A stretch of DNA of 64,000 nucleotides from Balanoglossus misakiensis. Taxonomy: Eukaryota > Animalia > Hemichordata. The stretch spans positions 2,164,999 to 2,228,998 of the forward strand of contig CM082596.2 in the NCBI GenBank assembly GCA_040954595.2, given 5' to 3'. The position numbers and the translations under genes were made by a program. Of the stretch, positions 8,701-63,060 are shown piece after piece. The notes beneath the pieces are model-generated. The model searched no databases and was not told the origin of the DNA. It saw nothing but the letters and a program-made list of their open reading frames with translations. Numbering within the stretch: the first letter of the stretch is position 1; every line of letters starts with the position of its first letter.

Positions 8701-9840
8701 TCCGCAAAGTCGAAAAATCCTCGATTTTTGACGATTTTCCTGAGCTATAACCCATGATTTTTATGAAAAAATCACCAAATTTCGAAAATCCGCAAAGTCG
8801 AAAAATCCTCGATTTTTGACGATTTTCCTGGGCTATAACCCATGATTTTTATGAAAAAATCACCAAATTTCGAAAATCCGCAAAGACGAAAAATCCTCGA
8901 TTTTTGACGATTTCCTGAGCTATAACCCATGATTTTTATGAAAAAATCACCAAATTTCGAAAATCCGCAAAGTCGAAAAATCCTCGATTTTTGACGATTT
9001 TCCTGAGCTATAACCCATGATTTTTATGAAAAAATCACCAAATTTCGAAAATCCGCAAAGTCGAAAAATCCTCGATTTTTGACGATTTTCCTGAGCTATA
9101 ACCCATGATTTTTATGAAAAAATCACCAAATTTCGAAAATCCGCAAAGTCGAAAAATCCTCGATTTTTGACGATTTTCCTGAGCTATAACCCATGATTTT
9201 TATGAAAAAATCACCAAATTTCGAAAATCCGCAAAGTCGAAAAATCCTCGATTTTTGACGATTTTCCTGAGCTATAACCCATGATTTTTATGAAAAAATC
9301 ACCAAATTTCGAAAATACGCAAAGTCGAAAAATCCTCGATTTTTGACGATTTTCCTGAGCTATAACCCATGATTTTTATGAAAAAATCACCAAATTTCGA
9401 AAATCCGCAAAGTCGAAAAATCCTCGATTTTTGACGATTTTCCTGAGCTATAACCCATGATTTTTATGAAAAAATCACCAAATTTCGAAAATCCGCAAAG
9501 TCGAAATATCCTCGATTTTTGACGATTTTCCTGAGCTATAACCCATGATTTTTTCAAAAAATCACCAAATTTCGAAAATCCGCAAAGTCGAAAAATCCTC
9601 GATTTTTGACGATTTTCCTGAGCTATAACCCATGATTTTTTCAAAAAATCACCAAATTTCGAAAATCCGCAAAGTCGAAAAATCCTCGATTTTTGACGAT
9701 TTTCCTGAGCTATAACCCATGATTTTTTTCAAAAAATGACCAAATTTCGAAAATCCGCAAAGTCGAAAAATCCTCGATTTTTGACGATTTTCCTGAGCTA
9801 TAACCCATGGTTTTTATGAAAAAATCACCAAATTTCGAAA
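8701..9840. repeat. Related 88-bp satellite subfamily (~13 copies)
   Basis: Unit GAGCTATAACCCATGATTTTTATGAAAAAATCACCAAATTTCGAAAATCCGCAAAGTCGAAAAATCCTCGATTTTTGACGATTTTCCT. GAGCTATAAC recurs at 9181 and 9269. It shares the GCTATAACCCATG core with the 87-bp unit and switches abruptly near 8700. Confidence 0.95.
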
Positions 9841-11630
9841 ATTCGCGAAGTCGAAAAATTGACATTTCTGGGTGATTTTCATGAGCTATAACCCATGGTT
9901 TTTATGAAAAAATCACCAAATTTTGAAAATACGCCAAGTCAAAAAATTGACATTTCTGGATGATTTTCATGAGCTATAACCCATGGTTTTTATGAAAAAA
10001 TGAAGAAACTTTGAAAATTCGCCAAAAGCACCGTCGAAATTTGACTCAAGGAGGTGCGTGCTATTTGTCATTTTTAGACAATTTTCATGAGCTGTAACCC
10101 ATGAAATATATCCCCAAAAATAAAATCACCAAAATCACTGCTAACTTGGAAATTGTACATACATGTATACATTTCACCCTATGTGAAAAGTGACAACAAA
10201 AAGATCAAAACTCAATTTGAAAGACAGTGGCAGGTTTTGAACCCCAGTCCTCCAATCATTAGTCCAAAACCTTACACACAGACCCAAGGTGACTGACGAA
10301 GGATATGACCCAAAAAGTATTATATGATGATCAAACTCGTGAAATTTAAAAAAAAATAAGTATGGCTCGGTCTCATTATAGTCAGTACTGTTAAAACTAA
10401 CGATAATGAGACCGAGCCTAATTTCGAGCCATAATTTCCACCGCATTTTTTTTAAATTGAAGAAATTTTGAAAAGTCGAAAAATCGTCGTTTTTTGAAGA
10501 TTTTCATGAGCTATAACCCATTATTTTTTTCAAAAAATGAAGCAATTTTGAAAATTCGTAAAGTCGAAAAATGGTCGTTTTTTGAAGATTTTCATGAGCC
10601 ATAACCCATGCTTTTTTTCAAAAAATGAAGCAATTTTGAAAATTCGCAAAGTCGAAAAACGGTCGTTTTTTGATGATTTTCATGAGCCATAACCCATGAT
10701 TTTTTTCAAAAAATGAAGAAATTTTGAAAATTCGCCAAAAGCACCGTCGAAATTTGACTCAAGGAGGTGCGTGCTATTTATCATTTTTAGACAATTTTCA
10801 GAGCTGTAACCCATGAAATATATCCCAAAAAATAAAATCACCAAAATCACTGCTAACTTGGAACTTGTACATACATGTATACATTTCACCCTATGTGAAA
10901 AGTGACAGCAAAAAGATCAAAACTCAATTAGAAAGACAGTGGCAGGTTTTGAACCCCAGTCCTCCAATCATTAGTCCAAAACCTTACCCACAGACCCAAG
11001 GTGACTGACGAAGGATATGACACAAAAAGTATTATATGATGATCAAACTTGTGAAATTTAAAAAAAAATAAGTATGGCTCGGTCTCATTATAGTCAGTAC
11101 TGTTAAAACTAACTATAATGAGATCGAGCCTAATTTCGAGCCATAATTTCCACCGCATTTTTTTTAAATTGAAGAAATTTTGAAAAGTCGAAAAATCGTC
11201 GTTTTTTGAAGATTTTCATGAGCTATAACCCATTATTTTTTTCAAAAAATGAAGCAATTTTGAAAATTCGTAAAGTCGAAAAATGGTCGTTTTTTGAAGA
11301 TTTTCATTGAGCTAAAACCCATGATTTTTTTCAAAAAATGAAATTTTGAAAATTCGCAAAGTCAAAAAATCGTCATTTTTGGATGATTTTCATGAGCTAT
11401 AACCCATGATTTTTTTTCAAAAAATGAAGAAATTTTGAAAAGTCGAAAAACTGCCATTTTTTGATGATTTTCATGAGCTATAACCCATGAAAATTTGAAA
11501 AAATGATGAAATTTGAACATTCCGCCAATAAGAAAAATGGTTAGTTTTTGATGATCTTCATGAGCTATAACCTATGCAAATTTGAAAATCATTAAAAACT
11601 CACAATTTTTCTATTTGGCGAAATTTGGAA
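9841..11630. repeat. Degenerate satellite monomers interleaved with a ~713-bp direct duplication containing a non-satellite insert
   Basis: CCGTCGAAATTTGACTCAAG occurs at 10031 and 10744. The non-satellite block at ~10140-10450 is repeated at ~10853-11160. Diverged CATGAGCTATAACCCATG monomers continue to ~11600. Confidence 0.9.
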
Positions 11631-43529: not shown

Positions 43530-46403
43530 GTAAGATATATGTCACTTCCTTTGTTCATATGTGCACATAGTTGATGGCGCGCGCACGCCCAAAACCACTC
43601 CAAAATTCACGCGTAAGATTAAGGCTTATCGTCTATTAAAGCACAGTCCCTGTGATAGATAAACCGTGGTCTATACTACGAAGTTACAATTACAACAATG
43701 ATTGTCGCGGGTAAAGAAGGTCGACTTGGTGTTCGCAGGGCTGTGAAACATCGGTAACCTGGCAGCGACGAAGCTGGGATGATGCATTCGCCGCTGTCAG
43801 TTTCGACGTTTGATAAGCGAGGAAAAACGCCTCGTATAAAAATGATGTAAGCCCTAAAACATTATTTCGACAACGCGTAAGGTAAACATGGTAAACCATG
43901 GGTAAACCTACCTGATATGATTCGAGCGTCGAGCTTCGGTGTCCTCACTTGACCTCACGTGTCCTCAGGGATGCGCGCGTATAGCCTACAGTGTACAAAT
44001 AAAAGCAAACAAATAGTATACGTTTTCAGGTGTGCAGATTTAAAATGTTAATTAGCTATTGAATTTTGAATAAACCATACTGTGGGTACGGTTAATTTCT
44101 GTTTAGTCAGTACTTACAGGTGTTTTTAACGCGATGCAGAGCTTACGCACTCTCCAGCAGACGACGACTGTCCTTCCCCGCACCAAGTGGTCCATTGCGC
44201 ATGCCCATGGTTTAGACAGGCGAAGCTGTTTTATACGTATTATATTATAATGATTTAAATAATGTTCATATATTCATGTATCTGTATATTACATAGACAC
44301 TACAAACAATACGCGACCTTTTTTTCATTGTAGGATAACAATAGAACTCAAGCCCCCAGCACTATGACAGTAAGAATTCTTTCTAGTTCTGTTGATTTAC
44401 AATAATACTGCGATTTGTCCATGTGCAATTCCTCAGTTGTGGAGGGACAGGTATACATTATAGAGGCATCATTTGCATTTTTACGTTACAATTACACGTC
44501 TTTGTAATTTGAGACATACTCACCTATGGTCAATTATGTTTAACAGTGCAGCATCTTAACTTTTCCAATATCCATGTACATTTTCTTTCCAGGATGCCAC
44601 GCCGAAATATGCTCCATATGGATATCCAACAAGCGGAATGGTAAGGCACTATCAGTCTGTCGTGCTGTGTCCTCTTGTCATAATGTCCTGTACCCCCCCC
44701 CCCCAATTCCCTGAGTGCATCCAAATTGAACTTCAACCATTTGAAGATTGAGAAACTTCCTCTTACATGCGTGAGTCGACAACCGCCTAATTATGCAGTT
44801 TAGTAAAATAACAATGATCCTCTCATAACTCATTATTTCATGCTTTTTTTTACAGATTCCTCAGGCGGACTATTTGTAGAAGAATTTCATCAATACAACA
44901 TGAAGGTTTTATCCAAATAAACGCCACGCAATTCATAAGCTGCAGGATTGAAGAGGTTTCCGTCCAAGTGTCATGTCTGAATAGTGTGTGTGGAAATTCC
45001 AGGTTCTGAGGAACCATGAGCTTATTTTTGTCAAAATGGAAGACAAACGTCATGAATGAACTCAAAGAAAATTGCTGCACTAAATAGAAGAGATTTTTGC
45101 CAATTTTCACTCTTAAACCAGTTATGTTACTTACTCTGACTTTCACTATCAGGAAAATCTCAAACGAACAAGATTTCGAAAATGTATCATCTGGACAATA
45201 TATCCATCACAATAATCTGAAGATTCCTGAAAACTAAAATGGAGGTCAATACGTAGCAATTTCATTCTTTCTCATTGAAATAGCATGGTATATTTTAAAT
45301 ATCAGAAGTGGGGTTTCCTGTAAAACAATATGCTCATTGAACCCCCAAATCTTTTTTGTTTGAAACTGGGGTAGTTTTAAGTAGCAGTAAAGGTTTACCT
45401 TTAAAGTTTTAATTTCTAGGCTTCGTTTTTTTAAACTTTCGTTCATATTTTCAATTTTGTTTTGCAACACCTGCGCATCTGATCTTGATTTGTGGAAAAA
45501 TATAAGTCTGCAATCCTACCAAATCTACAAATGGGTTTTGCTACATAAATTACATAATAAATAAATTACATATCCTGTTTGAATAATCTAGGGCCCTAAA
45601 TCACATCATGCATGATGGATCCTGAATCTTCACTATAACACCACTGATACCATAAGCACTGCCTTGTTCTCTGCTTAACAAATTACTCCACACAAAACAT
45701 AAGGTTGTCAACTGGTTTATTCAAACTTTTGAGAATGAAGGACTGACACAAAATATACAGATACACCTCTGAGTTGACCTTGAACATGAAAGAATGTGAC
45801 ACATCATAGAAATAATTATATGCAAATTTGATCGAGACTGGACAAAGACAGTTGTCAGTTGCTGGCAAAAATTCTGCAGTTTTGAATTTTAATCGATATA
45901 AAGCTTACACTTACAAAAAAAGCAAGGCCACTAATGACTATTTATTGACAAAGCACAATAAACTGTTTGGCTAGGCCCCAGCACGATGGGCATTGCACAA
46001 GGCAGGTATGGGAAAATGTACTTCAAAATATAAAGACTCAATATTGCATTACCACACAATCACTGCAGTATCCCCAGGACAAACAGTTTTTGAGAAACTG
46101 CATTTTGATACAAAAAAGCAAACCACAAAATGTTCATGTTAGTACATTTTGAAGAGGTGGCCACTACCACAGGTTTGATTGAGGTAGCGGGAAAAGCTTA
46201 AGTAAGCGCAACTGATGAACTGTTTTTAAACTACCGCTCAAAAATTTGTTCCTTTTTTTCAACCTCTGCAAGTTTGTGAAAAATACAGGCAAAAAAGATT
46301 AGAAAAGCAGTCTGAGAAAAAAAAAAGTTAAGTTTTTAAACCAATTCTGTTTTTGATTGGAGTCTCACATTAACCTCTATCCTTGACAGGGGGTCTAGGC
46401 ATC

Positions 46404-49400
46404 TTATGTGATTGGGCAGACACCATTCTTGGCAGCCTCGTGTCCGGATTCAACCAGGTGTTCTATGAAGACGTCGTTGAGGGCGATAGATGTTTCCATA
46501 ACATCCTCGTACTTGGGAAGTTCACAAGTTCCACTCTCCAGCATCTGTTTTACCTGGAAGAATATTTTCATAATGCTTTAAATTTTTGGCTTGGAAGAAA
46601 ACTTTAAAAGGGAGGGGGGAGAGAGAGAGGTGTCAGGGTGCAAGAGAAGTCAGAGTGAAAAGAGTAAAACAAGGCAAAAGAATTCCACAAAATATCCGTG
46701 ATTACCAGTGCTCGTACGTGATTTCATGACCTCTCACAATTAATTCTCTCGCACTGACGGTCAAAATAAACAGAGTTGACAAATCTATTACTAGTATTTT
46801 CTATGGTAAAGTGGGACCTCTAAAGAGGGAACAGAGGGTGAAAGGTTTACGGGGAAAAAACAATCACAAGGGTAATGTAATAAAGTAGAATAACACTCCA
46901 CTTACCATGAGATGAGTAAATCTGCTGACCATAAGCGATGGCAGCTCCTTTCTCTCCCATTCCCAGTTGTTTTCCGCAAAACTTCCAAACAAAGTTCCCT
47001 TTGATGGCAAAACAAATCAAGAGAGACTAAACATGAGTGTTGTGTTTTCATTTTTATTTCTCATTGTTTGATCTTCAGGTTTCTGGGTCTGACATTAGAT
47101 AACCCCCCCCCCCCCCCACCAACAGCTGATGTCCGTTGACCATGCACATGCATGTCTGATTTTCATTGCCAATGTCAAGTATGAAGAGGATTGGAATTTG
47201 TGCACTCCAATTCATCCTGGACGAAATATATGTGAACTCTATGAAAATGTCAAATTAACAGAATCCTACAGAACTCAATAGCACATTTTTTCGTGAGAGT
47301 AAACTTTTAATAAAACTCACATTTTGTTCATTCCAGAACACGTCAGCATTGGGGCTTTTGATCCGCAATATTCTTCCCTCTGCCATGGGTCCTGGTAGGC
47401 ATACAATAGAAACATCAGCTGTTCCCTTCTCTGTTTTAATCTGTCCCTTCAAAGTACCAAAAATCTCAACAAAATCCTATTAAAGAGAGAAAGAATTACA
47501 GCTGTTAAAGTTAGAAGAGATTATCTTGAGAAATGCGTTGAACCTTTGCTCTTTGGTCAGAAATTAGTCAAAATACACAACACGTATATCTTTGGAATTG
47601 CCAATGGGGAAAACTTTTATGGGGACAGTGGTGGCATGTGCGAAAAGAGGCATCATGAAGTTACTTCTTACCTGTCTCTTGGAGGCTTCATAACCAGGGT
47701 TGAATGTGCTGCCATTGAACTCGATTGCCTTGTTGTCATTCAGCCATTTGGCCAGAACTATCATGTGGAGTCCGTTACAACACAGGCCCCAGCCCTGGCC
47801 ATGGATATGAAAATTCACAGGACCCTGGGAATAGGCGAGTAGCAGAACATTTAATGTACAAGTCCATCTTGTATGGTTACAACTTGTCATGATGTGAACA
47901 AGATGAAAATGGAACTCCAGAGAAAGGATGAATGTAATAAACCAGATTTTATTCCATGGATTTTGTTACCTGTATTTTTTCCTTCAAATATTTCCCAAGA
48001 GGAAATGCAGCATATTGGCTGTTGACATAAGCGTTCACGCCAGACTTTTTCAACAGAGCAAGGACTGCCCGGTGATCCTCAGCTGTTTGGAACAGCACCT
48101 GGAAAATATGGCATAGAGAACATTTACATTTTAAACTGTGTACATTGTAAAGGACAGGTAGCATGAAGATGAGGTGGAGGGTGAGATCCAATATGTCTGT
48201 CTGTCTCATGTATGTACAGCTGTATGTATGTATGTATGTATGTATGTATGTATGTATGTATGTATGTATGTATGTATGTATGTATGTATGTATGTATGTA
48301 TGTATGTATGTATGTATGTATGTATGTATCTATGTATCTATGTATGTATCTATGTATCTATGTATCTATGTATCTATGTACATGTATGTGTACACGTATC
48401 GCAAACTTACCTTCTCCAGAATCATATGAGACACCTTACACTGATCAAGCACGTTGGTGACAACTTTACGTCTGACTGTGGATGTGGTGGCAATGATCAC
48501 CACATCAAACTTTCTCCCTGTGGTCACTTCATCCAGAGACTGCACGTAGACAACTTTGGTGCGAGGATTGGCTTTCGCTTCGTTGTCAAAAATCGACTTG
48601 GCACGGGTTCGGCATGCTCTGAAAAAGAGATGCAGAATATACACATGTATGTAGAGGATGTATTTTCTGTCAATAAATTATTTGCAGTAGACAATGTATT
48701 AGAAACTGAAAGTATATCCATGTTTTTTTGTATTGGGAAATGCACTTGTAGCAAAACATTTGTTAACGTTTTTACACAGATATGTGCAGGTGCAAATTGT
48801 TGGTCGATACATTATTGCAATCTTTATTACTATTGCTTGTGATGACAAAGAATTAAAAAACAGTTGGAAGTTTCCTTTTATCATGCTTTTCATGCATATT
48901 TTACTTCATTTGCATATCCTGTGAAAAATACCAGACTGGTTTAATTTTACTGGCAACAACAGTGTAACAGGTGGTGCCATATGTTATCGTGCAAATCAGC
49001 TGAACAAATATTTAAGGTCTATTCTGGTCATTTTAGTGAGGCTATTTTTATCCATAAAGAGTGTTTGAATTCTAGCACAAACACAGCGTCGAAAATGAAA
49101 CGAAGCATTAAATTTCAAAAAGCATTTCACATATCAAAAAGCATGCAATGTTAGACTTTCTCATGTTACTTACTCGACAGGTTCCACTACCACTACATCA
49201 ACAGCGATGTCTAAGCACGCCAGAGATTGCAGGTGTCGAGAACCAATGTTACCCGCGCCTGAGAAAATTAATTAAAATTAAAGATGCAGGCAGCGTAAGC
49301 AGGGCCCAAGTTATTGTGCAAAGATAAAACACTGCAGGGTAACCATATGGGTGACCTTATTTTCTGACATACACCCCCCCCCCCCACCTGGTATGTATTC

Positions 49401-52400
49401 CCACTGTAAGCTTCTTTGTGAGGTGGGTCCAGTCGGCTGGACAAAAATAAAGAAATCCACAAAAATGAGGTAATAAAACACAGTCGTAAAATTTGGAGTC
49501 CTTTGGAGTTTGGGTGTGTAATAGGAATGTAGTGAACCAAACAGTTACAAAAGGATGTTGAATTTATTACATCAGGGTGGGGAACACAGAGTTCAAAAGG
49601 TTGAGAATAGTACTTGTGAGAGGGGTTATACTTGTATGCCAGACTATGACAGAATATACTTTTCATGGCAGTAGGGGAAAGTATTGTTACCAATATTCAA
49701 ATCCAAATCAAGATCGACTTATAAACATACCCCCAGGAACATCTAAAAAGAGACCTTCTATAGATCAGCAGGTTAAAAAGTAAGAATGTACCCAAATTGC
49801 CCAAACACCTTAACAAAGAAAGTCCCCATTGCTTAAATTATGAGTGAGTGAGTGAGTGGGCCAATGGAGAAGGAAACGTTGCACACAATACTGTCTATAC
49901 CTTCCCAGTTTGCAAGCTCCTTTTTCTGCACACATCTCCAGAAAAGGCCATGCAGCCTGGACGGTGCCTACTGTTTCCTGTGTCAAGCCCAATTTGACTT
50001 GTGTTCCTGTTCACATTGACTTTGTTCCATGTATGTGACACTTACCAACGATCAAGACAGCAGGCAATTTGGACATATCAGTGCCACGCATCGGCTCATA
50101 ATACTTCTGCACGTGTTCTAGTTGATGACTCAGTGGCAACAGGTCTTCATCATCAGGGTTATCCAAGAAAGTCTTTTAAAGGAATTACAGTCAAATCTGT
50201 TAAACCAGACACCAAAGGAACTGAAGAAATTGTTCGGTGTTACAGAAGTGTCCAATTAACAGAGGTTGAGTGATTCTTTGTGAAAGGGACGGCAAATGTG
50301 TTTGGTATATGGGTTGCCAGATTAGACAGGGTTTACTGAACACTATATGATGAGACCGACACATTCATAGTATGAACAGAATCTTTTGACACAGAAAACT
50401 GCATTATAAGTCAGGCAAACATTCACATACAGCACACTGTCAAAAATTCCAAGTTAAATACCAGGGCATACGTGGCATTGCAACATATCATGTCAGCTTA
50501 CTGAATATGACGTGTTCACTTTTGAGTATTCGAGTGCAACAGGATATGGATATATTTAAACAAGCTCTTTCATACAAAGCAAAGGAGGTTAAATATGCTC
50601 AAGGACACTGCATATCTGTGGTGGAAATCTCAAGTGTGGTGTCACATACATGTACAGCCATTTAATTAACATGATGGGCTACATGTTGTTTGTCCCGTGT
50701 GACATGAAAATGTCCTCCCATATAAACTGCCCCGCCATGCGAGATCTAGCTTGCAGGGTCTATTACCTCCTGCTGTCAAAATGAAGTAAAAATGAAACTA
50801 CAAAGTGCTCACCTTGGTCTGCAGCCACAAGCCCGGCTTGAATTTCTTGTCTAGGCTGTCATCTATTTCAATTTCTTCCACTTTTACAGAACCAAGCCTA
50901 GTGACATGCAACTTCTCAAGTGGTCTGAAGATGTAGCGGTTCTTGCGAGTCAGAACCTAGCAATCGACAGAACGGGAGATGGTCAAAATGAAAGTATGGA
51001 AAACATGGAAAGAAATCTCAAAAAGTTGCAACTGAGATACAGTGGTTGAATACCAGATCTGAACTTGGAATTCCAGATGGATTGCATTGACTACTGTTTG
51101 AACAAAGATCACACACATTTTCACCTTGCAAACTAAACTGGGAAGCAATTGCACAATGAGGTATATCAAAGTTTTGTGTAAAAGTGCTTAGTTCTTATCA
51201 TTTTTCAGCTGATCTGCACATTTTGATGGAAATCATATTTAAAATCAGCGTGCATGCATACAGACAGAAAGACAGACAGAAATAGATACCATACATAATG
51301 ATTATCAACATATGTCAAATAATCCTGTAAGCTCCTTTAGGATAATAGGAGCTTAAAATGAACATGTGTATTGTAGTGCAAGACTCAGTTTTCCATGCAG
51401 TGGCATGTCCCTTCCCGATTTTACCTATGCTCCTTAATTACCAGTATGGGGGTAAGACAGACAATACTGTATCAAAAAACACTTGGGGAGAGCAGGACAC
51501 TGGTAATACTCACCTCAAGCCACCATCTTCCTGGTGCTGCCCAGTTAGCATGGTAAGAGAAGAGGGCATTCTTTTCAGTGATGCCAGATCCTACCCAGAT
51601 GGAGGCCTGTGGATGCCAGAACACTTCACCTTGTCCAGCATGGTGACACTGCAGATCTTTCGGTTGTCCTCCCAGGAAAAATGCCAAATCTAGGACGTGA
51701 CTGTTTCCAAGGAACCAGCTTTGTTTTACTGTTACCGGTATATTGGGAAAAAGACAAGATATGTATTGACAGGTACATTACACAGGAAGTGATTAAGATG
51801 ACTTGGTAAGCATCCTGTTGCTATGGTAATTAACCAAGTCTCGCCACATCTCACTATGAGCAGAAAATCATTTACTAAGCCTATGGGCCACGTAGACTCT
51901 TGTACATTTAGCTTCACTCACAGTCACAGTGAATAACCTGATCTGCTATTTAGCTACAGATAAATGACACGATGTAACCCCAAATGAATAGCCCTAGGCT
52001 TTGAGCACAGACAGGTTAGCTCATGAATACTCTGGTTACTAGTACCAACAAGCACGCATTGTGTGTCTACAATATAACTCATTCAGAAAAACAGGAGATC
52101 CAGTCTGTACATGTAGCATAGCTTGAGGACCATAACCACCAAAAGCATGACGTCAATAAATTACCTATCCCAACCTAGCAAATAAATCTTCAATGACATG
52201 CACGTAGTGAACAGGTGTCCAGTCTAATATTAACCATACGTGAATGCAATTTCGATTACACAATTATTTCTATACTTTTTGGGTATCATGGAAATGTTGC
52301 ATGTTTCAACAAAACTCACCTGACTCAGGATGAGGGAGACCACCAATGATATGAGACCATTCCGTAAATTCAAACACAAATGATGTTATGCCACCGTCTG

Positions 52401-52848
52401 CCTCTGCCAATTCACGCGCCTTCCTAACCGATGAATAGAATCGCCGGTTGTAGGCCATTCGTATCTTGATATCTCGGCCATCAGCTTTAGCACTCTCAGC
52501 AACTTTCAGCACTTCAGCGATTTCTTCGCTATTTCTCCCACCAGGTTTCTCGAAAAGGATTCGGTTTACTCCGTGTTGAATGAGCTTGATGGTGCAGCTA
52601 GCAAGACTCGGGATACTTACAGTCACTATAGCATTGACCGAGGTGTTGTTAGGAGAGATCGGATTGGCCGCTAGAAAAGGCTCAACTCCACCCAGGTGCA
52701 CGGAGTGGCCAGTCTTCTCTTCAAACTTGGCAGCACTTTCAGCTCCGCGACCAATCACCTCGTACTTGACGCCAAGATCCGTCAAGACTTTGGCATACTC
52801 GGCAGCATGGACCCCAGCACCAACCAGCCATACAACAGCGTCAGACAT
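46404..52848 (-). CDS. Tandem fusion of two bacterial-type Gfo/Idh/MocA-family NAD(P)-dependent oxidoreductases, ~662 aa, 11 coding exons
   Basis: Minus-strand exons 52848-52320, 51728-51514, 50956-50813, 50172-50046, 49258-49174, 48618-48411, 48098-47970, 47824-47672, 47476-47321, 46998-46906, 46553-46404. All introns are GT-AG with compatible phases, total 1989 nt, no internal stop. Unit 1: VWLVGAGVHA, FEKPGG, AYNRRF, FEFTEWSH, WFLGNSHVLDLAF, ANWAAPGRW, FRPLEKL, FKPGL. Unit 2: VLIVGAGNIGSRHLQSL, IIATTS, ILEKVLFQ, WGLCCNGLH, SKR, C-terminal CPIT*. Minus-strand AATAAA at 45946-45941. Confidence 0.9.
48222..48390. repeat. (TATG)n / (TATC)n microsatellite in an oxidoreductase intron
   Basis: Pure TATG run followed by TATGTATC units. 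It produces spurious MYVC ORFs. Confidence 0.95.
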
Positions 52849-55183
52849 TGTTACCAGTCACACTGAAAATTACAGATATGAATAAATGCAATCGTGTCGG
52901 CCAGGCAGGCAACAGATGCCAAAAAAATGACATGATTAGATTTTCACTTCATTGATTAGAAGCCACTTTGGCCCAGCCATTCAAAGACTTGGCATTACTA
53001 TCTCAGTATGCAGTCTGTCTGGGTCTAGATTTGTTGCGGGGTCAACGTCCGTAGCCCTACCCCATTCCAAACATACAGTCAGGGGAGTGGTAGGGCTACG
53101 GATCCGCAGAAAGGCCCAGCCTTACGAGTTACGTGTACACCGGGTGTCCGGCTTTGGCTACTCCCGGTACAGAGGGGCACAGCCTGCAGCCTAGCTAGCC
53201 GGACACTCTCGTACAACTAACAAGTAGAGCTCCCGGCGCGCCCACACCGTCGTCAAGGCAGTGTGTGAAATGTACATGACTCCAAAGCGAAATTGACAAT
53301 TTTAGTTCACACACTTTTTGAGCAACCGTGGCCGTTGTTCACAACACACGTTGATACACGCAACTATATTACGTAATTTGTACACGCAGACAGTCTTCAC
53401 ACAATCATGAATACCGTTATATGCATATCGCATGTATCACTTTCGATGGCACCGGCGCGGCTGGCCCGGCCCTAGCTACACGCCGAAATAATGAATTTCA
53501 TTTCATTCGCCTCACCTTTGCTTGGACCGTATGGAACACAGTGTAACTGTAAGAACAACCCAGCAGGTGATGAACAGCAAACACAATCAGTAGTATGGTC
53601 AGTTTTAAACAACCACACAGTCACTACCTTCGACCAGAGCATATGCACACAGTTTTATACACCCCACCCGACAGGAACTTGGACTGTTCCATTTTACACA
53701 CGTAATATATACAGTTACAGCAGCCCCATCGCGAAGCGATCGTATCTCGTGCCTTTGGTCTCTCACACACATCCTGCTGCAGTGTTGTCTAATTGATATC
53801 GACATCAAACGCCTATCTTATTACTAGTACAAACCTGTCAGACTGTAAATGCATTGCAACCCGATATTATCAAAGGAATGCATGGGTTTCGAAATATATG
53901 ACTAGTACTAGCGCGCCTCACCTTTACTTCGACCGTATTATGAATGTAAGAATCCACCGACTGAAATTGAAGGGATGGACTGCAAATCTAATCAGGTAAA
54001 TGGCCAGAACCACGCTACACTATCCCAGCCAGAACCTCGCAAACACAGTCAACAAAGAATGCAAAATCAGACCACGCCAAGATATGAGACGCGCCCCCGG
54101 ACAAACCGGTAATATGGACTGCGCCCTCAAACGTGTGATGTCATCACCATCCCCTATTACCCTAGAGGACTACCACCAAATATATAATACAATGTAATAC
54201 ATTTTCTGTGCTTGGGACAGTCTGTTACGATTGTTTATATAAATATATTTTTAAATGATATTATTTGTCAATGCTGTTTCCTGTATTCATTTGCGTATAG
54301 TATGGTGCTCCCATGTTCATGTTTGTCTTCCTTGATGAGGGGTAACCATGGATACACAGGTTTGACGTGGCAGTTTATTGCACTGTGGCCTGTGCAACTA
54401 GGTCATTCAAACGCCAACAACTTCATATGCAAAAAAAGACCATTTGTGCGATATTACTTCCTCAAAGCTAATTTTATTTACAAACACTGTTCAATCTAAA
54501 CACAACAAGTTATCGGATCTGGTCATAAAGCATTCGCTTATTGCTCTTCTGCAAACAAGATCACTACATCAACTTCATCAAGCCAGCAAATTAAAATAAC
54601 TTGAATCAAGCAAATTCAAACAGACCGTGTCTTTTTTTGAAAACCATGGTACACATCCATAAAACACTTCTCCCCCAGACTGGTGAAAAATAAGCCCTAT
54701 AGTGACATTCTAAGTGACAAGCTATTCTTCGCATTTCCCTGTGAATTGGTCCAGTAGCATCTTTCTTTCACCCCTATTTCCCAGTAATCTGGTCCAACTT
54801 CATCACAGAAAACAATGGACTTGGACCAAACCATGGTGGCGAAAGGGTTAAACAGGACTGAAAAAAAAGATTGGTACATTCTGCAGAACATGTCTTGAGT
54901 CTTTGCTGGTATTCGGAAGTTCAGGGGTGTTGTTCCAAGTTGCAAAGTTTGGATAAGCATCTCTTGAGGAAACATACAGCAAGTACTGTTGTCAGGTACA
55001 GCAACATGCTATGATCAACAATTTGTATCTTCTCGAGACATCTACTTTGAAATTCGTTGATGCACACTACAGCGCTGCACTGTAAAGTTCCCCATCAGAA
55101 TGATGTCTGCATTTACGTTCTTGAAATTTTGAAATCAATGCAATATTTCAGTCCAAGATGGGTTAATGGGGATAAAACTCCTA

Positions 55184-55773
55184 TTAGTGGTGATCATTCT
55201 TCTTATCCTTTTCTAGGTATTTTTCCACGCCAACAGCCGCTATAAAAAGGATAGCACCCCACTGGAAACCACGGAATATCATTCTTGGCAAGCTGACACC
55301 ACGAATCAGTGGTTGGTACCGCCACACCTCATTCCTGCCAAAAAAAGAAGAAACAGCAAGTCACAATTGTTACCTGACACTTCTGAATAGTGATGTGCTG
55401 ATGTAAACATTCATAAGTTTAGCCTAGTTGGCAACAGAGATCATGTATGATGTCCAATTTCAAAGAAGTGAATCATTCTTTTTCAATCACGTCGTATGAT
55501 TCCTTTATATTGGGGCATTTCATGTTTTAAAATTTAAATGCCAGATTCAGCTTTAATAATGGAATTATTGGTAAACAGTTTATAAAATAGATGATTTGGT
55601 AGCTTGCAGTCTAGTGTCAATGTGACCTGTGCAGCTGTCTGGAATTTCACTAACCTCAACCAGGGGTCTTTTAATCCTTTCCTAGCGAGTAATTCTTCTA
55701 CTTCTTTCAATTCTGGTACATCTTTGACCTGCCACTTTCTCCAATCCGGTATTTCATACGGCAATTTCCCCAT
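55184..55773 (-). CDS. NDUFB3: NADH:ubiquinone oxidoreductase subunit B3 (complex I B12), 89 aa, 2 coding exons
   Basis: Exons 55773-55655 and 55334-55184 give MGKLPYEIPDWRKWQVKDVPELKEVEELLARKGLKDPWLRNEVWRYQPLIRGVSLPRMIFRGFQWGAILFIAAVGVEKYLEKDKKNDHH. This contains the NDUFB3 signature LxxxGLxDPWxRNExWRY and a single TM segment. Confidence 0.95.
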
Positions 55774-55832
55774 TTTTTGCAGTACGTGCGTGCCAATTTC
55801 AGCAGAGTTGAGCACAGGGGTAGTGACCTCGA

Positions 55833-55920
55833 CCAATCAAAATGGCGCCTCCCCTAGTGCCAGAGGGCGCTGACGCCGATGACTAAAGTTAGCTTTAGAT
55901 TCAACGTCGGTTTCGGTTTC
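55833..55920. promoter_or_regulatory. Probable bidirectional promoter between NDUFB3 and the caspase gene (CCAAT, YY1-like, ISRE-like motifs)
   Basis: CCAAT at 55833, CAAAATGGCG (YY1 consensus) at 55838-55847, GCCAGAGGGCGC at ~55859-55870, GGTTTCGGTTTC (IRF/ISRE consensus) at 55909-55920. The caspase ATG exon starts at a splice acceptor (56896), so an upstream non-coding exon must exist. These are motif matches only. Confidence 0.5.
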
Positions 55921-56812: not shown

Positions 56813-56912
56813 ATAGGTAATAATTGGCTTTAATATGATTTGTATATTCATATAGGTTATAATCTTAATAACTGTTCCCATTTCTTTCTATTACAGAAAA
56901 TCTAAGTCCATC

Positions 56913-59900
56913 ATGTATTGCACAGACGCACAGATGGATTTGAACTACCGTAAGATTCTCAAAAGCGTAGATGAGAACATGATGGCTAGAGATTTCAACT
57001 CACTTAAGTTTCTATGCCAGGACTACATCCCTGCCGGAAAACTCGAAAATGCCAGGAAACCCAGGGATATTTTCCAGGAGCTTGAATACAAGGGATACCT
57101 AGGACCTGGGGAGAAACTTTACTTTCTGGCAGACCTCTTGCAAAAGATTCACAGAGTGGATCTGATTAAAAAGTTGGGATTAGGAAAACCCAGGGATGTG
57201 CATCTGAAGATTGAAAGAGATGGACGGCCAGGCCCTCAGTTTACTCCCTTTAGGTAAAGTGACATTTGATGAATTTGTGTTATTTTAAATGAGAGTGAAT
57301 CTCATACAGACTTAGGGCATGTGGTCTGTTGGTAAGATTACCAGAGATGTAAATAATGAGTAATTTTAATTGCATTCATTTCATTTTGCAGGTTGCTGTT
57401 ACTCTCAGTGTGCGACAATTTGACAAACGATGATTTGGAGACACTTAAATTCTACTGTCATCCGTTTATCAGCAAGGGTACAATGGATGAGATGAAAGAT
57501 GCGCCCTCAATGTTGTCATTCCTGGAACAGTCTGCCCGTATCGGAGAAGATGATGTGGATTTCTTGGCTGATATGATTGACTCGCTGGAAAATGAACAGT
57601 TGCTTGGGAAAGTGAATGCTTATAAAGGTAGACTAATTGCCTTACCCTTTCTTGTAGTTTTGTGTTCAAACAGCAAAAAAACACTAATGAAATTTGTTGT
57701 CCAACTGTCATCTGTTGTTTATTTTTTATAGCAAATATAGGTTCATCATCATCATCAGACCACGAGGAGACAAAATTGTACCAGCCAATACAGCCGCAGC
57801 ACAGAATGGTACCGAGTGGAAGAGGTTTCAACGACATCCCACGATACGCAGCAATTCCTCAAGCAGAGATACCACTGATGCCACCATCATATTTTATGAG
57901 TGGCAACTACCGAATGCCGAAGACCCCGTACAACCGCCAAATGTGCCAACAGCCAGTTAGTTATCCACCAGTTGAACAAAGTGGGCGCTATATTGGAGTC
58001 GTGCCAGCTGAACCTGATGCAAGAGTTGCTACTCCCCATCCACAGACACCAGTGCCAGGTATGTGGGAACAATTTCATCTGCAGATCCTTAACAACACCC
58101 TGCTCAACACATCATAGTCATGTGAGAAGCATCATCTTAAAACCATAAACCTTTTTCTGGAAACTGCTTCAAATTGTGTTACAGAGAGACATCTTAAAAC
58201 TGCTGTCAGAATTCCACTAGTGAGAATTTATGTCAAAACATTCACACGGCGATATGTTTGTAGAATTTGCGTTGGAAATTTCTTGAAGATGAGACATTTC
58301 TAGACGTTATCACCTTTTGTGTTTGCAGCTCAAGCAGGCGTTGTAGAAGGAGAAGCACCCAGTCAAACACCAACGTGTGTAAGTAGCCACCAACAGCCAG
58401 AAGAAAACATGGCCGCACCCGCAAACCAAGAGGAGAACGAGGTGGCAGTCACAGAGAGGCAGAGTCAACAGCCGCAAGAAAACGTGACAGTGTCTCAACC
58501 CGGTAGCCTGGTTGAGGAAAGTGAACGTGTTCCAAGTCAGCCGCAAGAGTTTGCAGAGAATTCCGTAGTGGTGGCAAACAGAATTCCAGGTATTTCAGTG
58601 TTTTGTGTGAAGTCACACACCTTAGATAAATAAGGTGTCGCATGATAGAGAAAATGTGTCTCTCTGTTGGGTGTTGTCTCAATAATCTCTGCAAACTGAA
58701 TACCTCTAAAGACCGAACAGCAACTTGGTGATATGTTTGTGTGAACAAGACATCTGTATGTTTACATTTCCAGGAGAGCTGAATATCGTGCGAGGTCATC
58801 CACAAAGTGCACGTCCAGTGGAAAATGTCCAGGTGACGGAGTCATCCCAAGAAAATCAGGAATTGTCGACGCGGTTGCAGAGATTAAATTTTGAACAGGA
58901 AAAAATTGAGATGCCATCGTATAACATGAAGACAAGTCCACTCGGTTTGTGTATTATAATCAGCAATGAGCATTTCCATGTCGACAGGCGTTATGAGTCA
59001 AGTCGTCCATTAGAAGACAGAAAAGGAACAAAGGTTGATAGAGGTAAAAATGACATTGCATGTGGATGTGTGTGTGTATCCATCTACCTACATGTATCCA
59101 TATCTATCTTTGTTCTTTCTAGGTAGAGTTGACTTTCTGATTGGCTAACTAGCTGGCTACATGTATATGTATTTATCGCATCTACCTGAGCAACCTCCCG
59201 TAATTCTTCTATACCTACCTACCTTTACAGTGAACTTGCCCACCCACCAACCTTACTACAAATAAAATGCATTTTCTCTCTTTATGATTTGTTTTCAGAT
59301 AACTTGTTTTACCTTTTCCGGGGGCTGGATTTTGTATTAGATGTAAGAAATGATCTCACAGCGAAACAAATGCGTGATTGGCTGGATGCCATTGGGAGAC
59401 AGGATCACTCTGGATTCAGCTGTTTTGTCTGCTGTATTCTTAGTCATGGCTCGGCTGGCACTGTGTATGGTGCTGATGGGGTCCCTGTTGATGTGGGTGA
59501 CCTGACCCGCAGTGTCAAAGGGTCTCGCTGCCCTACTCTGGTTGGAAAGCCTAAACTCTATTTCATGCAGGCCTGTCAAGGTCGCCGTCAACAAACTGGA
59601 GTGCAGTTGGAGATCGACAGCATTGATGATCAACCGGCAGACAGCATCCCGAATGAAGCAGACTTCCTTTTCGGTTATGCTACTGTTCCGGGGTTTGTCT
59701 CCTACCGCAGTAAGACACAGGGATCCTGGTACATCACGAAACTAGTGGAATGCATTGATAAGTATCATGAGCAGTACGACCTCTTGAGTATCATGGTCAA
59801 GGTCAATGAAGAGGTTGCCAAGGCGATTGCAAAAACACAACAAGGTGAAAGGAAGCAAGTTCCCGCGCCATTAGTTACCTTGCGCAGGAAAGTTTTCCTC

Positions 59901-59927
59901 CAGCCAATTCAAAAACCAGTTGTCTAG
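56913..59927 (+). CDS. CASP8: Caspase-8/10-like initiator caspase (two death effector domains, long Pro/Gln/Glu linker, catalytic domain), ~684 aa, 6 coding exons
   Basis: Exons 56913-57253, 57392-57627, 57741(or 57732)-58058, 58329-58589, 58774-59043, 59299-59927. DED1 LKFLCQDYIP...LLQKIHRVDLI, DED2 LKFYC..., GLCIIISNEHF, RKGTKVD, CCILSHG (catalytic His), KPKLYFMQACQG (catalytic Cys), LEID cleavage site, GSWYI. The symbol is family-level because CASP8 versus CASP10 is a vertebrate split. Confidence 0.92.
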
Positions 59928-61324: not shown

Positions 61325-63060
61325 ATGAGGACATGCATATTTCTGGCCCTGGTAGGAGTTGCCTTAGGTAAGAAAACTTGTGAAATGGCAAGAAACATAA
61401 AAAACAATAACTTTTTCTGATGTATTTATGGAGCTCTTTACGAAAGTGTCTTTTGCATCATTTCATAAACTTTGCACTTGCGACCATAAGTTTAATTTTG
61501 TTTTTAATAACTCTGTCGATGTTATGATTGAAAGGTATGAAAGAACCCTATCAGGAAGAGCCATGTCTTAGCAATGGTGGAACCTGTGTCGAGACTGCAT
61601 GCTGTCCCAGTAATAACTACGTCAGCGGACAATGTCCAACACAGTCAGACGGAATCAAATGTTGTTACAGCACACCGACGTGTCGTAAGTTTCATTAAAA
61701 CGAAAAACTAATAATTTCAAACACTTCATTGTTTTTTAGTTCTTTTTTAAAATTGTCTTTTTTATTATTCGTGAAATAAACTTAGATCTGAAACATTAGA
61801 AGACTTGGAAATACTTCTCAATATTTTGTAAGGCTTCGACTATTTGATCCCATCTCCACTGCAGCCACCAATATACTCTCTGTCTCTAACTCCCCCTCTA
61901 GCTTACAACGAATCACCATGTCAGGATAATGGTGGCGTCTGTGAATATGACTATTGCTGTGATAACTACCAGTCTGGAGAATGTCCATCGCAAGCTGGCA
62001 ACATCAAGTGCTGCTACAGCACTCGTAGGTGTTACATGTGCCAATTTTTAATATTTATTCATATTTCCATATTCATATTTTAGTTTTAGTACACAATATG
62101 CTCTATCAGAGAGTGTCATAAGGTATAGTAAATTCCTTTGAAAACTTGCAACATTCAGAAAGTAACTTCAATTCAGCTACATAGTGAACTTTTCTCTCTC
62201 TCTCTCAGCTACTTGTAGTGGCAGTGGCTATGTACCAGAGGCCTGTTTAGAATGCATTTGTTTTGTTGAAAGCAACTGTTGCATGTTAAGTGGAGGACCT
62301 ACTGGCCTTGAGCACTGCGTATATGATGTCACCAGTTACTCATGCGGACCTTATCAAATCAAAGAAGACTATTGGATAGATGCCCAGATGTACGGTGGTA
62401 GCTTGATGGGAGGTAAGGTCATAGTTTGTCAGTTTTAACATTACATGGTGATGGGATATACTCTCACACTGTATTACTAGAAAATATTGACAAACACGTT
62501 TTTCAATGGACTGGTAGATGCATTGTGAATGCATGGTTGTAGCCTGACACACCATCCTACTCTATACTGCCACCTATAATTTACATATATACCTATATAT
62601 GGACAAAGGGAAGTGGTGTGTCTAAATGTTTGAACGATCTGCTAAATTTGAAATTTCCATGGTGACAGTGGTTATTATTGCAAACACATATGTACCTTTA
62701 GTATTACCACTGAAAGGATTGTTCAAATAACGCATATTACTGAGATGTACCCAAAAGAATTTGTCTAATTTCCATGTTACAATATACTGTACAGAAAAAC
62801 ATATTCTTCCTTGCTTGACAGATTGGGGAACATGCACAGCCGATTGGGGATGCTCAGAAGACTGTGTGAATGGATACATGCAACGATACGCAACTGAGGC
62901 CAGACTCGGCACCACACCGACCTGCGAGCATTTCTCTCGTATCCACAACGGCGGACCCAATGGCCACGAAAATCCAAACACCGTCGCTTACTGGGAAAAG
63001 GTTTTGGATTGCCTCAACCAGGGAAGTTGCTGTGAACCGTATCCACCAACTTGGTGTTAA
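61325..63060 (+). CDS. Invertebrate-type (i-type/destabilase) lysozyme with two N-terminal Cys-rich defensin-like modules, ~252 aa, 5 exons
   Basis: Exons 61325-61367 (signal MRTCIFLALVGVALG), 61535-61684, 61902-62024, 62209-62412, 62822-63060. Signature motifs CLECICFVES, YDVTSYSCGPYQIKEDYWID, CSEDCVNGYMQRY, CEHFSRIHNGGPNG. AATAAA at 63238. Confidence 0.92.

What the first reader, a model, noticed from the sequence alone, without database searches (positions are those of the whole stretch)
50046..50172. Fusion scar: the join lies inside one exon and retains the second gene's apparent start Met
Exon 4 reads TFLDNPDDEDLLPLSHQLEHVQKYYEPMRG-TD-MSKLPAVLIVG(AGNIG). The first part resembles the C-terminal helix of unit 1. 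After a linker of about 2 residues, a Met (ATG at 50076-50074) sits just before the first Rossmann strand of unit 2, where a stand-alone gene would start. No intron falls at the join. This fits loss of a stop codon between tightly packed operon genes before intron gain, rather than exon shuffling.
Basis: partly seen in the sequence, partly recalled or inferred. Interest (0 to 1): 0.7.

Follow-up and report, generated by a model that had tools for sequence, protein, structure and literature searches.

The report
Reversed-order bacterial enzyme fusion, acorn worms
An acorn-worm gene joins two bacterial-type enzyme genes in the reverse of their usual bacterial order, and the same join occurs in single-celled eukaryotes, so it likely formed before reaching animals and the 'leftover start codon' is likely not an ancient scar; the enzyme is predicted to modify sialic-acid-like sugars.

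Summary
Exon 4 (50172-50046, minus strand) of an 11-exon, 662-aa gene carries the join between two distant Gfo/Idh/MocA units; ATG 50076-50074 is Met329; the linker is 0-3 residues. Ptychodera, Glandiceps and Saccoglossus have the same fused protein.

The interpretation mostly fails. In prokaryotes the pair sits in nonulosonic-acid clusters, in the opposite order (unit 2 then unit 1) in 147 of 149 linked loci. The same fusion occurs in a euglenid, in Chromera and in five unnamed environmental proteins. Most group with the acorn worms in trees and share derived characters, so the join likely predates its arrival in hemichordates. The Met is in only 2 of 11 fused proteins, both closest kin, and no intron at the join is expected by chance (p about 0.87).

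Best reading: one old fusion after a rearrangement. The order was likely forced because unit 2's invariant C-terminal motif (mostly CPIT-stop) must stay free; no fusion in operon order was found. Function, inferred from gene neighbours only: NAD(P)-dependent oxidation or epimerisation of the side chain of a CMP-nonulosonic acid, as aciC/aciD do. Not found in print in nine searches.

The parts
46404..52848 (-). 11-exon gene, 662 aa, fusion of two Gfo/Idh/MocA-type oxidoreductase units (unit 1 then unit 2); introns 145-787 nt
   Evidence: orthologues P0003 (P. flava), P0004 (G. talaboti), P0257 (S. kowalevskii)
52320..52848 (-). Exon 1: start codon, Rossmann domain of unit 1 (GxGxHA, EKP, YNRRF)
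   Evidence: (PF01408 E 7.6e-4, under the cut-off)
51514..51728 (-). Exon 2: unit 1, catalytic His motif NSHVLD
50813..50956 (-). Exon 3: unit 1, KPG motif; 47/48 identical to P. flava
50173..50196 (-). 3' end of intron 3 with the AAG acceptor; the next AG upstream is 24 nt away and would give an immediate stop
50046..50172 (-). Exon 4 (residues 297-338): last helix of unit 1, junction, first strand of unit 2
50077..50088 (-). Residues 325-328, where stand-alone unit-1 proteins end; the junction loop has low confidence in the orthologue's model (residues 328-331, pLDDT under 50)
50074..50076 (-). ATG, Met329; shared only with P. flava among 11 fused proteins
46404..49258 (-). Exons 5-11 (49258-49174, 48618-48411, 48098-47970, 47824-47672, 47476-47321, 46998-46906, 46553-46404): rest of unit 2, ending in the conserved CPIT-stop

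Best explanation
Exon 4 holds the join of a two-enzyme fusion that is shared by acorn worms, a euglenid and Chromera in the reverse of the usual prokaryotic gene order, so it likely arose once, after a rearrangement and before reaching hemichordates, and Met329 is likely a later substitution rather than a kept start codon. SHOWN: gene model, conservation in three other acorn worms, prokaryotic order and spacing, presence in protists, shared derived characters. INFERRED: (1) duplication or shuffling of the unit2-unit1 cassette put unit 1 directly before unit 2, as seen today in locus L136; (2) the two were then joined end to end; (3) only this order was viable because unit 2's invariant C-terminal motif must end the chain, whereas unit 1's ragged end tolerates additions; (4) hemichordates got the ready-made fusion from a microbial eukaryote, or kept an old eukaryotic gene lost elsewhere; (5) both units are active NAD(P)-dependent enzymes that work in sequence on the C7/C8 side chain of a CMP-nonulosonic (sialic-type) acid, as the A. 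baumannii aciC/aciD pair is thought to.
For: Order: 77 of 77 linked GTDB loci and 54 of 54 linked metagenome loci are unit2->unit1; 2 of 2 plasmid loci; 14 of 15 same-strand pairs in even samples of five phyla. No fusion in operon order among the best 150 hits of an exhaustive search of 1.84 billion cluster representatives; all 20 two-unit proteins held are unit1-unit2. Yet 100 of 108 measured gaps are 100 bp or less, and 17 of them are a multiple of three. Unit 2 ends in [IFV][TS]-stop in 155 of 156 loci, and its tail is modelled at pLDDT 96. Unit 1's tail varies (37-47 residues after KPG), and P0281 fuses unit 1 to a GDSL domain, the family of its commonest downstream neighbour. One origin: His after the first GxG in 8 of 9 fused proteins with that end against 0 of 242 stand-alone; a 2-4 residue insertion in 11 of 11 against 35 of 253. 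Concatenated trees group 10 of 11 (SH-aLRT 96) and 9 of 10 (99); AU test for all 11 gives p 0.56 with the constrained tree 2.4 lnL better. Single-unit trees join hemichordates with Lentomonas (95; 85). Met in 2 of 11. L136 has unit1-unit2 adjacent at 71 bp inside a duplicated cassette. Function: 71 of 84 long-flank loci hold a CMP-synthetase or NeuB, and an SDR or CMP-synthetase lies directly upstream in 38. L162 reads legB-legC-neuC-neuB-...-cytidylyltransferase-oxidoreductase-unit2-unit1, parallel to lgaA-F-aciA-aciB-aciC-aciD (PMC5595891). Catalytic Lys and His motifs are kept in both units.
Against: Three prokaryotic or phage loci do have unit 1 before unit 2, one with overlapping stop and start (G1239), so direct stop loss from such a locus is possible. 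The loci were the best 80 of 468 and the best 80 of 421 or more, are partly redundant and lean to two subfamilies. With FastTree on all 264 unit-1 rows the fused halves fall in five or more places. envC, envE and, in single-unit trees, Chromera are long branches that sit apart. All IQ-TREE trees are quick searches without bootstrap. The five environmental fusions are unnamed, and envC or envE could be prokaryotic or viral. The His, insertion and tail characters were picked after seeing the alignment. The 164 of 164 protein count for the unit-2 tail comes mostly from a search limited to 364 aa, so it is biased. The Chromera model and the Glandiceps paralogue P0128 lack the CPIT end. No other nonulosonic-acid pathway gene lies in the window. 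The two-unit model leaves the units' relative position open (pTM 0.54).
Confidence: 0.68

Rival explanations
1. One reading: a tightly packed prokaryotic pair in unit1->unit2 order lost its stop codon on or after transfer to the animal line, and Met329 is the kept start codon of unit 2.
For: Linker of 0-3 residues. Met lies within the range of stand-alone starts (8 of 118 at this offset) and is shared with P. flava. Unit1->unit2 pairs exist: G1239 with an 11-nt stop/start overlap, phage contig L161, and L136.
Against: 147 of 149 loci have the opposite order. The three exceptions are not sister to the fused clade. Met is absent from 9 of 11 fusions, including both hemichordate outgroups. Protists share the fusion and its derived characters.
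Confidence: 0.08
2. Several independent fusions: hemichordates and each protist group took the bacterial pair separately and fused it in the same order, because only that order is viable.
For: FastTree scatters the unit-1 halves. envC, envE and Chromera are unstable. A constraint on the unit-2 C-terminus would itself force the same order each time. Linker lengths differ in envA and envB.
Against: His character 8 of 9 against 0 of 242, and insertion 11 of 11 against 35 of 253; concatenated clade at 96 and 99; one clade not rejected. It may still hold for envC and envE.
Confidence: 0.14
3. The fusion formed in an unsampled prokaryote or virus and spread already fused into several eukaryote lines.
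For: The source of the five environmental fusions is unknown. envC is compositionally odd and sometimes falls outside the clade. A tailed-phage contig carries the pair in unit1->unit2 order.
Against: No fused gene in 160 prokaryotic loci, in samples of about 1,900 genomes, in the plasmid and phage collections or in IMG/VR scans. Every named fusion is eukaryotic.
Confidence: 0.08
4. Annotation artefact: two adjacent genes or isoforms, with unit 2 started from Met329.
For: AAG is a weak acceptor, and stronger-looking AGs upstream would stop unit 1. A Saccoglossus model and a Glandiceps paralogue hold unit 2 only.
Against: Three other hemichordate proteins and a transcriptome-derived Lentomonas protein run through the join. 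The alternative acceptors would cut off unit 1's conserved last helix. The Saccoglossus unit-2 model starts after its GxGxxG motif and so looks partial.
Confidence: 0.02

Closest known systems
Gfo/Idh/MocA oxidoreductase family (PF01408)
   Same: Both units have the Rossmann GxGxxG strand, the EK motif and a catalytic-type His. The fusion passes Pfam's cut-off (40.3 bits against 24), and the fold matches family structures.
   Different: Two distant paralogues (14% identity, HH probability 97.6) in one chain; no close solved structure (best E 5e-8 and 6e-6); no NCBIfam family at 1e-10.
A. baumannii aciC/aciD of the (8-epi)acinetaminic acid module lgaABCDEF-aciA-aciB/E-aciC-aciD (PMC5595891, passages; PMC9676051, passages and supplement rows)
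   Same: A pair of genes after the legionaminic acid genes, a CMP-synthetase and an SDR; the same layout as loci L162, L011 and L150.
   Different: Sequence identity to AciC/AciD untested. Many prokaryotic loci lack the SDR (present in 25 of 84). The animal gene is fused, reversed, intron-split and has no pathway neighbours in the window.
ElaA, the Gfo/Idh/MocA enzyme proposed to oxidise C8 of CMP-legionaminic acid (PMC13656337, passages)
   Same: Same family and same kind of gene cluster; gives the chemical precedent for side-chain oxidation followed by SDR reduction.
   Different: Single-gene homodimer in the order elaA-elaB-elaC. It was not among the PDB sequence hits and was not compared directly.
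Microbe-like deuterostome novelty genes, including sialic-acid enzymes such as CMAH (PMC4729200, passages)
   Same: An intron-containing acorn-worm gene whose nearest relatives are in microbes and microbial eukaryotes.
   Different: Found here only in hemichordates among animals. No hit for Gfo, MocA, oxidoreductase, legionaminic, fusion or the Saccoglossus locus id in the 2 supplement files held; the paper lists 4, so the unseen files may bear on this.

Membership tests
Gfo/Idh/MocA family | N-terminal NAD(P)-binding Rossmann domain (PF01408) | tested here: met
   P0003 scores 40.3 bits against cut-off 24; single window exons score under the cut-off
Gfo/Idh/MocA family | Two-domain fold with C-terminal alpha/beta sheet domain | tested here: met
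   AlphaFold model pLDDT 87; Foldseek top hits are family members, E about 1e-14, TM by target about 0.7
Gfo/Idh/MocA family | EKP-type Lys and catalytic His (motif roles recalled; ElaA K91/H181 in PMC13656337) | tested here: met
   EKP and NS(S)HxxD in unit 1, EK[VP] and CNxxH in unit 2, kept in all fused proteins that cover them
Gfo/Idh/MocA family | NAD(P)-dependent redox activity | not testable with these tools
   needs an enzyme assay
AciC/AciD-type nonulosonic acid epimerisation pair | Prokaryotic homologues sit after legionaminic acid genes, CMP-synthetase and SDR | tested here: met
   71 of 84 long-flank loci hold a CMP-synthetase or NeuB; L162 has the full layout
AciC/AciD-type nonulosonic acid epimerisation pair | Sequence orthology to AciC and AciD | not testable with these tools
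   The KL12/KL73 sequences were not reached; the defining paper is not held
AciC/AciD-type nonulosonic acid epimerisation pair | Host genome supplies the substrate pathway (Leg genes, partner SDR) | tested here: inconclusive
   None in the 64-kb window; no whole genome held
Operon-order read-through fusion (stop-loss scar) | Domain order equals ancestral operon order | tested here: not met
   147 of 149 loci have the opposite order
Operon-order read-through fusion (stop-loss scar) | Very short linker between complete genes | tested here: met
   0-3 residues; KPG-to-GxG distance 48-55 in 9 of 11 fusions
Operon-order read-through fusion (stop-loss scar) | Start Met of the second gene kept across orthologues | tested here: not met
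   2 of 11 fused proteins, sister taxa only
Horizontally acquired animal gene | Intron-containing gene among animal genes, not contamination | tested here: met
   10 introns; neighbours encode DED, caspase and destabilase domains; present in three other hemichordate annotations
Horizontally acquired animal gene | Nested within a donor clade and absent from other animals | tested here: inconclusive
   No other animal among the listed hits. Sister to protist fusions but not nested and the tree is unrooted, so inheritance with many losses is not excluded

The most novel reading that the evidence does not exclude
Acorn worms took from a microbial eukaryote a ready-fused, order-reversed AciD-AciC-like enzyme and use it to oxidise or epimerise the side chain of CMP-sialic acid. 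They, and scattered protists, would then display a nonulosonic acid stereoisomer of a kind so far described only in bacteria. The membrane-anchored unit-2 paralogue in Glandiceps would extend this chemistry to the secretory pathway.
Probability: 0.2. Interest if true: 0.8.

Novelty: new variant of a known kind. Interest (0 to 1): 0.5.

Why it matters
It corrects a tempting story: a Met at a fusion join looked like a fossil start codon, but outgroups show it is recent, and the parent operon runs the other way. It gives a clean, testable case of domain order being set by a protein constraint (a free C-terminus) rather than by gene order. It adds a hemichordate-restricted gene shared with protists to the open question of where deuterostome sialic-acid chemistry came from. 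It also offers a single-chain version of an uncharacterised bacterial enzyme pair that can be assayed directly.

Tried and rejected
RNA evidence: no RNA holder was listed for 46300-53000; that is no evidence either way, and read laying was not used. No whole genome is held, so neither the rest of the pathway nor orthologue intron positions could be checked. Complex prediction for unit 1 with unit 2 was not available; there is no verdict on binding. The careful unit-1 tree and the unit-2 AU test did not finish. Viral scans with P0264, A2 and A3 found no relative, and the L161 query found only itself. No match in the phage collection or, by blastn, in E. coli genomes. The Atlas gave only stand-alone bacterial clusters for P0003; the query with P0258 did not complete. 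The junction-region search with P0258 found no further fusions and missed even P0003, so it is insensitive. Earlier findings of this scan: nothing. Two papers were not held. Rejected: contamination (introns, animal neighbours, orthologues); internal tandem duplication in the animal (units 14% identical, each closest to its own prokaryotic family); exon shuffling (the join is mid-exon and is shared with protists); Met324 as a start scar (it aligns within unit 1's last helix). I first took all pairs for one order and the -16 gaps for artefacts; both were corrected. Rows left out of trees: envE2 as a near copy; 52 of 264 and 52 of 175 rows used for the single-unit IQ-TREE runs; 32 of 121 complete pairs; envE, L103 and L109 dropped. 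Nine paper searches showed no description of this gene or fusion; most subscription journals are not in that library.

Full report
1. The observation. The window is animal DNA: neighbours encode DED, caspase and destabilase domains. On the minus strand 52848-46404 an 11-exon model with GT-AG introns gives an open 662-aa frame. The acceptor is AAG. The two AGs upstream and intron read-through all stop at once, while the AAG join aligns gap-free to RefSeq proteins of Ptychodera flava (664 aa) and Glandiceps talaboti (660 aa). Saccoglossus kowalevskii also has a model that spans the join. The species is an acorn worm closest to P. flava (82% over 638 columns). Splicing in this species is inferred from conservation.

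2. What is joined. Both halves are Gfo/Idh/MocA-type units, only 14% identical to each other, each closest to its own family of stand-alone prokaryotic proteins of about 310-330 aa. Stand-alone unit 1 ends 38-41 residues after KPG in 81 of 118, which is residue 325-328 here. Stand-alone unit 2 starts 7 residues before GxGxxG in 74 of 118 and 10 before it in 8. So two complete genes are joined with 0-3 spare residues. The P. flava model has pLDDT 87, with a low-confidence loop at 328-331 and pTM 0.54; the fold matches family structures.

3. Gene order in prokaryotes. Of the best 80 of 468 GTDB loci, 77 hold both genes, all unit2->unit1; of the best 80 of at least 421 metagenome loci, 54 hold both, likewise; 29 hold one, 15 of them with short flanks. 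Two plasmid loci agree. Even samples of five phyla (1,905 genome slots) gave 19 new genomes: 14 unit2->unit1, 1 unit1->unit2, 1 on opposite strands and 3 weak hits to other family members. In all, 147 of 149 same-strand loci have the reverse of the fusion order. The fusion order occurs three times: a tailed-phage contig (L161, with a 37-codon ORF between), genome G1239 (divergent unit 1, overlapping stop and start) and L136, where a duplicated cassette reads unit2 ... unit1-unit2-unit1 with a 71-bp gap. The loci are partly redundant, so the counts are not independent events.

4. The fusion is not only in animals. An exhaustive search of 1.84 billion cluster representatives (3,933 hits, best 150 listed) returned the same unit1-unit2 fusion from the euglenid Lentomonas (transcriptome), from Chromera velia and from five unnamed environmental clusters. 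No other animal appeared among the listed hits. All 20 two-unit proteins held have this order. They share a His after the first GxG (8 of 9 against 0 of 242 stand-alone) and a 2-4 residue insertion (11 of 11 against 35 of 253); both characters were chosen after seeing the alignment. Concatenated quick IQ-TREE trees group 10 of 11 (SH-aLRT 96) and 9 of 10 (99). Holding all 11 together is not rejected (p-AU 0.56; the constrained tree is 2.4 lnL better). Single-unit trees join hemichordates with Lentomonas and envA/B (95; 85). Against this, FastTree scatters the unit-1 halves, and envC, envE and Chromera are long, unstable branches. The three unfused loci in fusion order are not sister to the clade.

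5. The Met and the intron. A Met 7-12 residues before unit 2's GxGxxG is found in 2 of 11 fusions, this one and P. flava. They are sisters in all trees, and Glandiceps and Saccoglossus branch outside, so one late gain is simpler than many losses. Chance alone gives about 0.10 for such a Met and 0.86-0.89 for no intron at the join. Neither detail carries weight.

6. Why the order is reversed (inference). The operon order offers many chances for read-through: 100 of 108 measured gaps are 100 bp or less, median 10, 21 overlap and 17 are a multiple of three. Yet no unit2-unit1 fusion was found. Unit 2 ends in [IFV][TS]-stop, mostly CPIT, in 155 of 156 loci, and this tail is modelled with high confidence (pLDDT 96). 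Unit 1's tail is ragged, and one protein fuses it to a GDSL domain, the family most often found directly downstream (12 of 84 loci). The simplest reading is that unit 2 needs a free C-terminus, so a fusion could only survive once duplication or shuffling had put unit 1 first, as in L136. The final joining may have been a stop loss or a small deletion; the sequence no longer tells which.

7. Likely function (inference from neighbours). Of 84 loci with 5 kb upstream, 71 hold a CMP-synthetase or NeuB; LegB, LegC, NeuC, NeuD, a nucleotidyltransferase, a PtmA-like SDR and WbuX/HisH/HisF are also common. Plasmid locus L162 runs legB-legC-neuC-neuB-acetyltransferase-nucleotidyltransferase-hypothetical-cytidylyltransferase-oxidoreductase-unit2-unit1. 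This parallels lgaABCDEF-aciA-aciB-aciC-aciD of A. baumannii (PMC9676051, supplement rows and passages). There, swapping only the SDR changes acinetaminic acid to its 8-epimer, and both differ from legionaminic acid at C7 (PMC5595891, passages). ElaA, a Gfo/Idh/MocA enzyme, is proposed to oxidise C8 (PMC13656337, passages). I infer that the pair does C8 oxidation and C7 inversion on a CMP-nonulosonate, and that the fusion acts on a sialic-type sugar nucleotide. Identity with AciC/AciD was not tested by sequence, and the window holds no other pathway gene. I put about 0.5 on a nonulosonate substrate in the animal.

8. Against what is known. Simakov et al. describe microbe-like genes, including sialic-acid enzymes, in acorn worms (PMC4729200, passages); the 2 supplement files held do not name this gene, and the other listed files were not seen. 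Petit et al. argue that the sialic-acid pathway goes back to early eukaryotes, with bacterial replacements in some lines (PMC5811610, passages; author name recalled), so inheritance with loss stays open. PMC12053666, PMC4487303 and PMC7371886 were read as passages and gave no description of AciC/AciD. Nine searches showed no report of this fusion.

9. Verdict. Observation confirmed; interpretation partly supported. The join is a real, old fusion, but not a stop-loss scar of the standard operon, and the Met is probably recent. The more interesting facts are the reversed order, the sharing with protists and the link to bacterial nonulosonic-acid chemistry. New variant of a known kind; interest 0.5.

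Noticed in passing
P0128 (Glandiceps talaboti LOC144445258): A unit-2-only paralogue with an N-terminal hydrophobic segment like a type II membrane anchor; it groups inside the hemichordate clade, so it likely split off from the fusion.
   Followed up: partly
P0127 and P0257 (Saccoglossus kowalevskii): Two separate loci; one model spans the join and the other covers unit 2 from just after its GxGxxG motif. Both look partial.
   Followed up: partly
L161:392-10532 (IMG/VR contig): A tailed-phage contig (Mu-type portal next door) carries a whole nonulosonic-acid cluster: LegC-like, NeuB, NeuC, NeuD, nucleotidyltransferase, unit 1, unit 2, CMP-synthetase.
   Followed up: partly
L046, L049, L057, L065 and others: In 16 of 108 pairs unit 1 starts 16 nt inside the end of unit 2, so its first residues are encoded on the CPIT codons. 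MSD and MSN are the commonest and third commonest unit-1 starts, and the window protein also starts MSD; this may be chance.
   Followed up: partly
L136:637-7958: Duplicated unit2/unit1 cassette next to an oppositely oriented NeuB-SDR-CMP-synthetase-Gfo block.
   Followed up: partly
L206-L209 (G1320, G306, G213, G1477): A divergent sister pair (unit 2 ending FPWA, YKWA or LPVT) keeps the unit2->unit1 order in nonulosonic-acid clusters.
   Followed up: partly
window 1-11576: 87-bp tandem satellite, 115 copies at 97% match, with degenerate copies beyond.
   Followed up: no
window 12966-43240: Several Thr/Ser-rich mucin-like genes with tandem repeats (111 bp x 23; 60/90 bp) followed by Cys-rich and hydrophobic exons, apparently a tandem family of membrane mucins.
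   Followed up: no
window 56856-59927 (+): Caspase-8-like gene: DED (E 6e-21) and caspase domain (E 4e-47).
   Followed up: no
window 62166-63060 (+): Destabilase / i-type lysozyme domain (E 7e-14).
   Followed up: no
window 55534-55836 (-): Short exon that by recall resembles the complex I subunit NDUFB3, just upstream of the fusion gene on the same strand; no Pfam hit.
   Followed up: no
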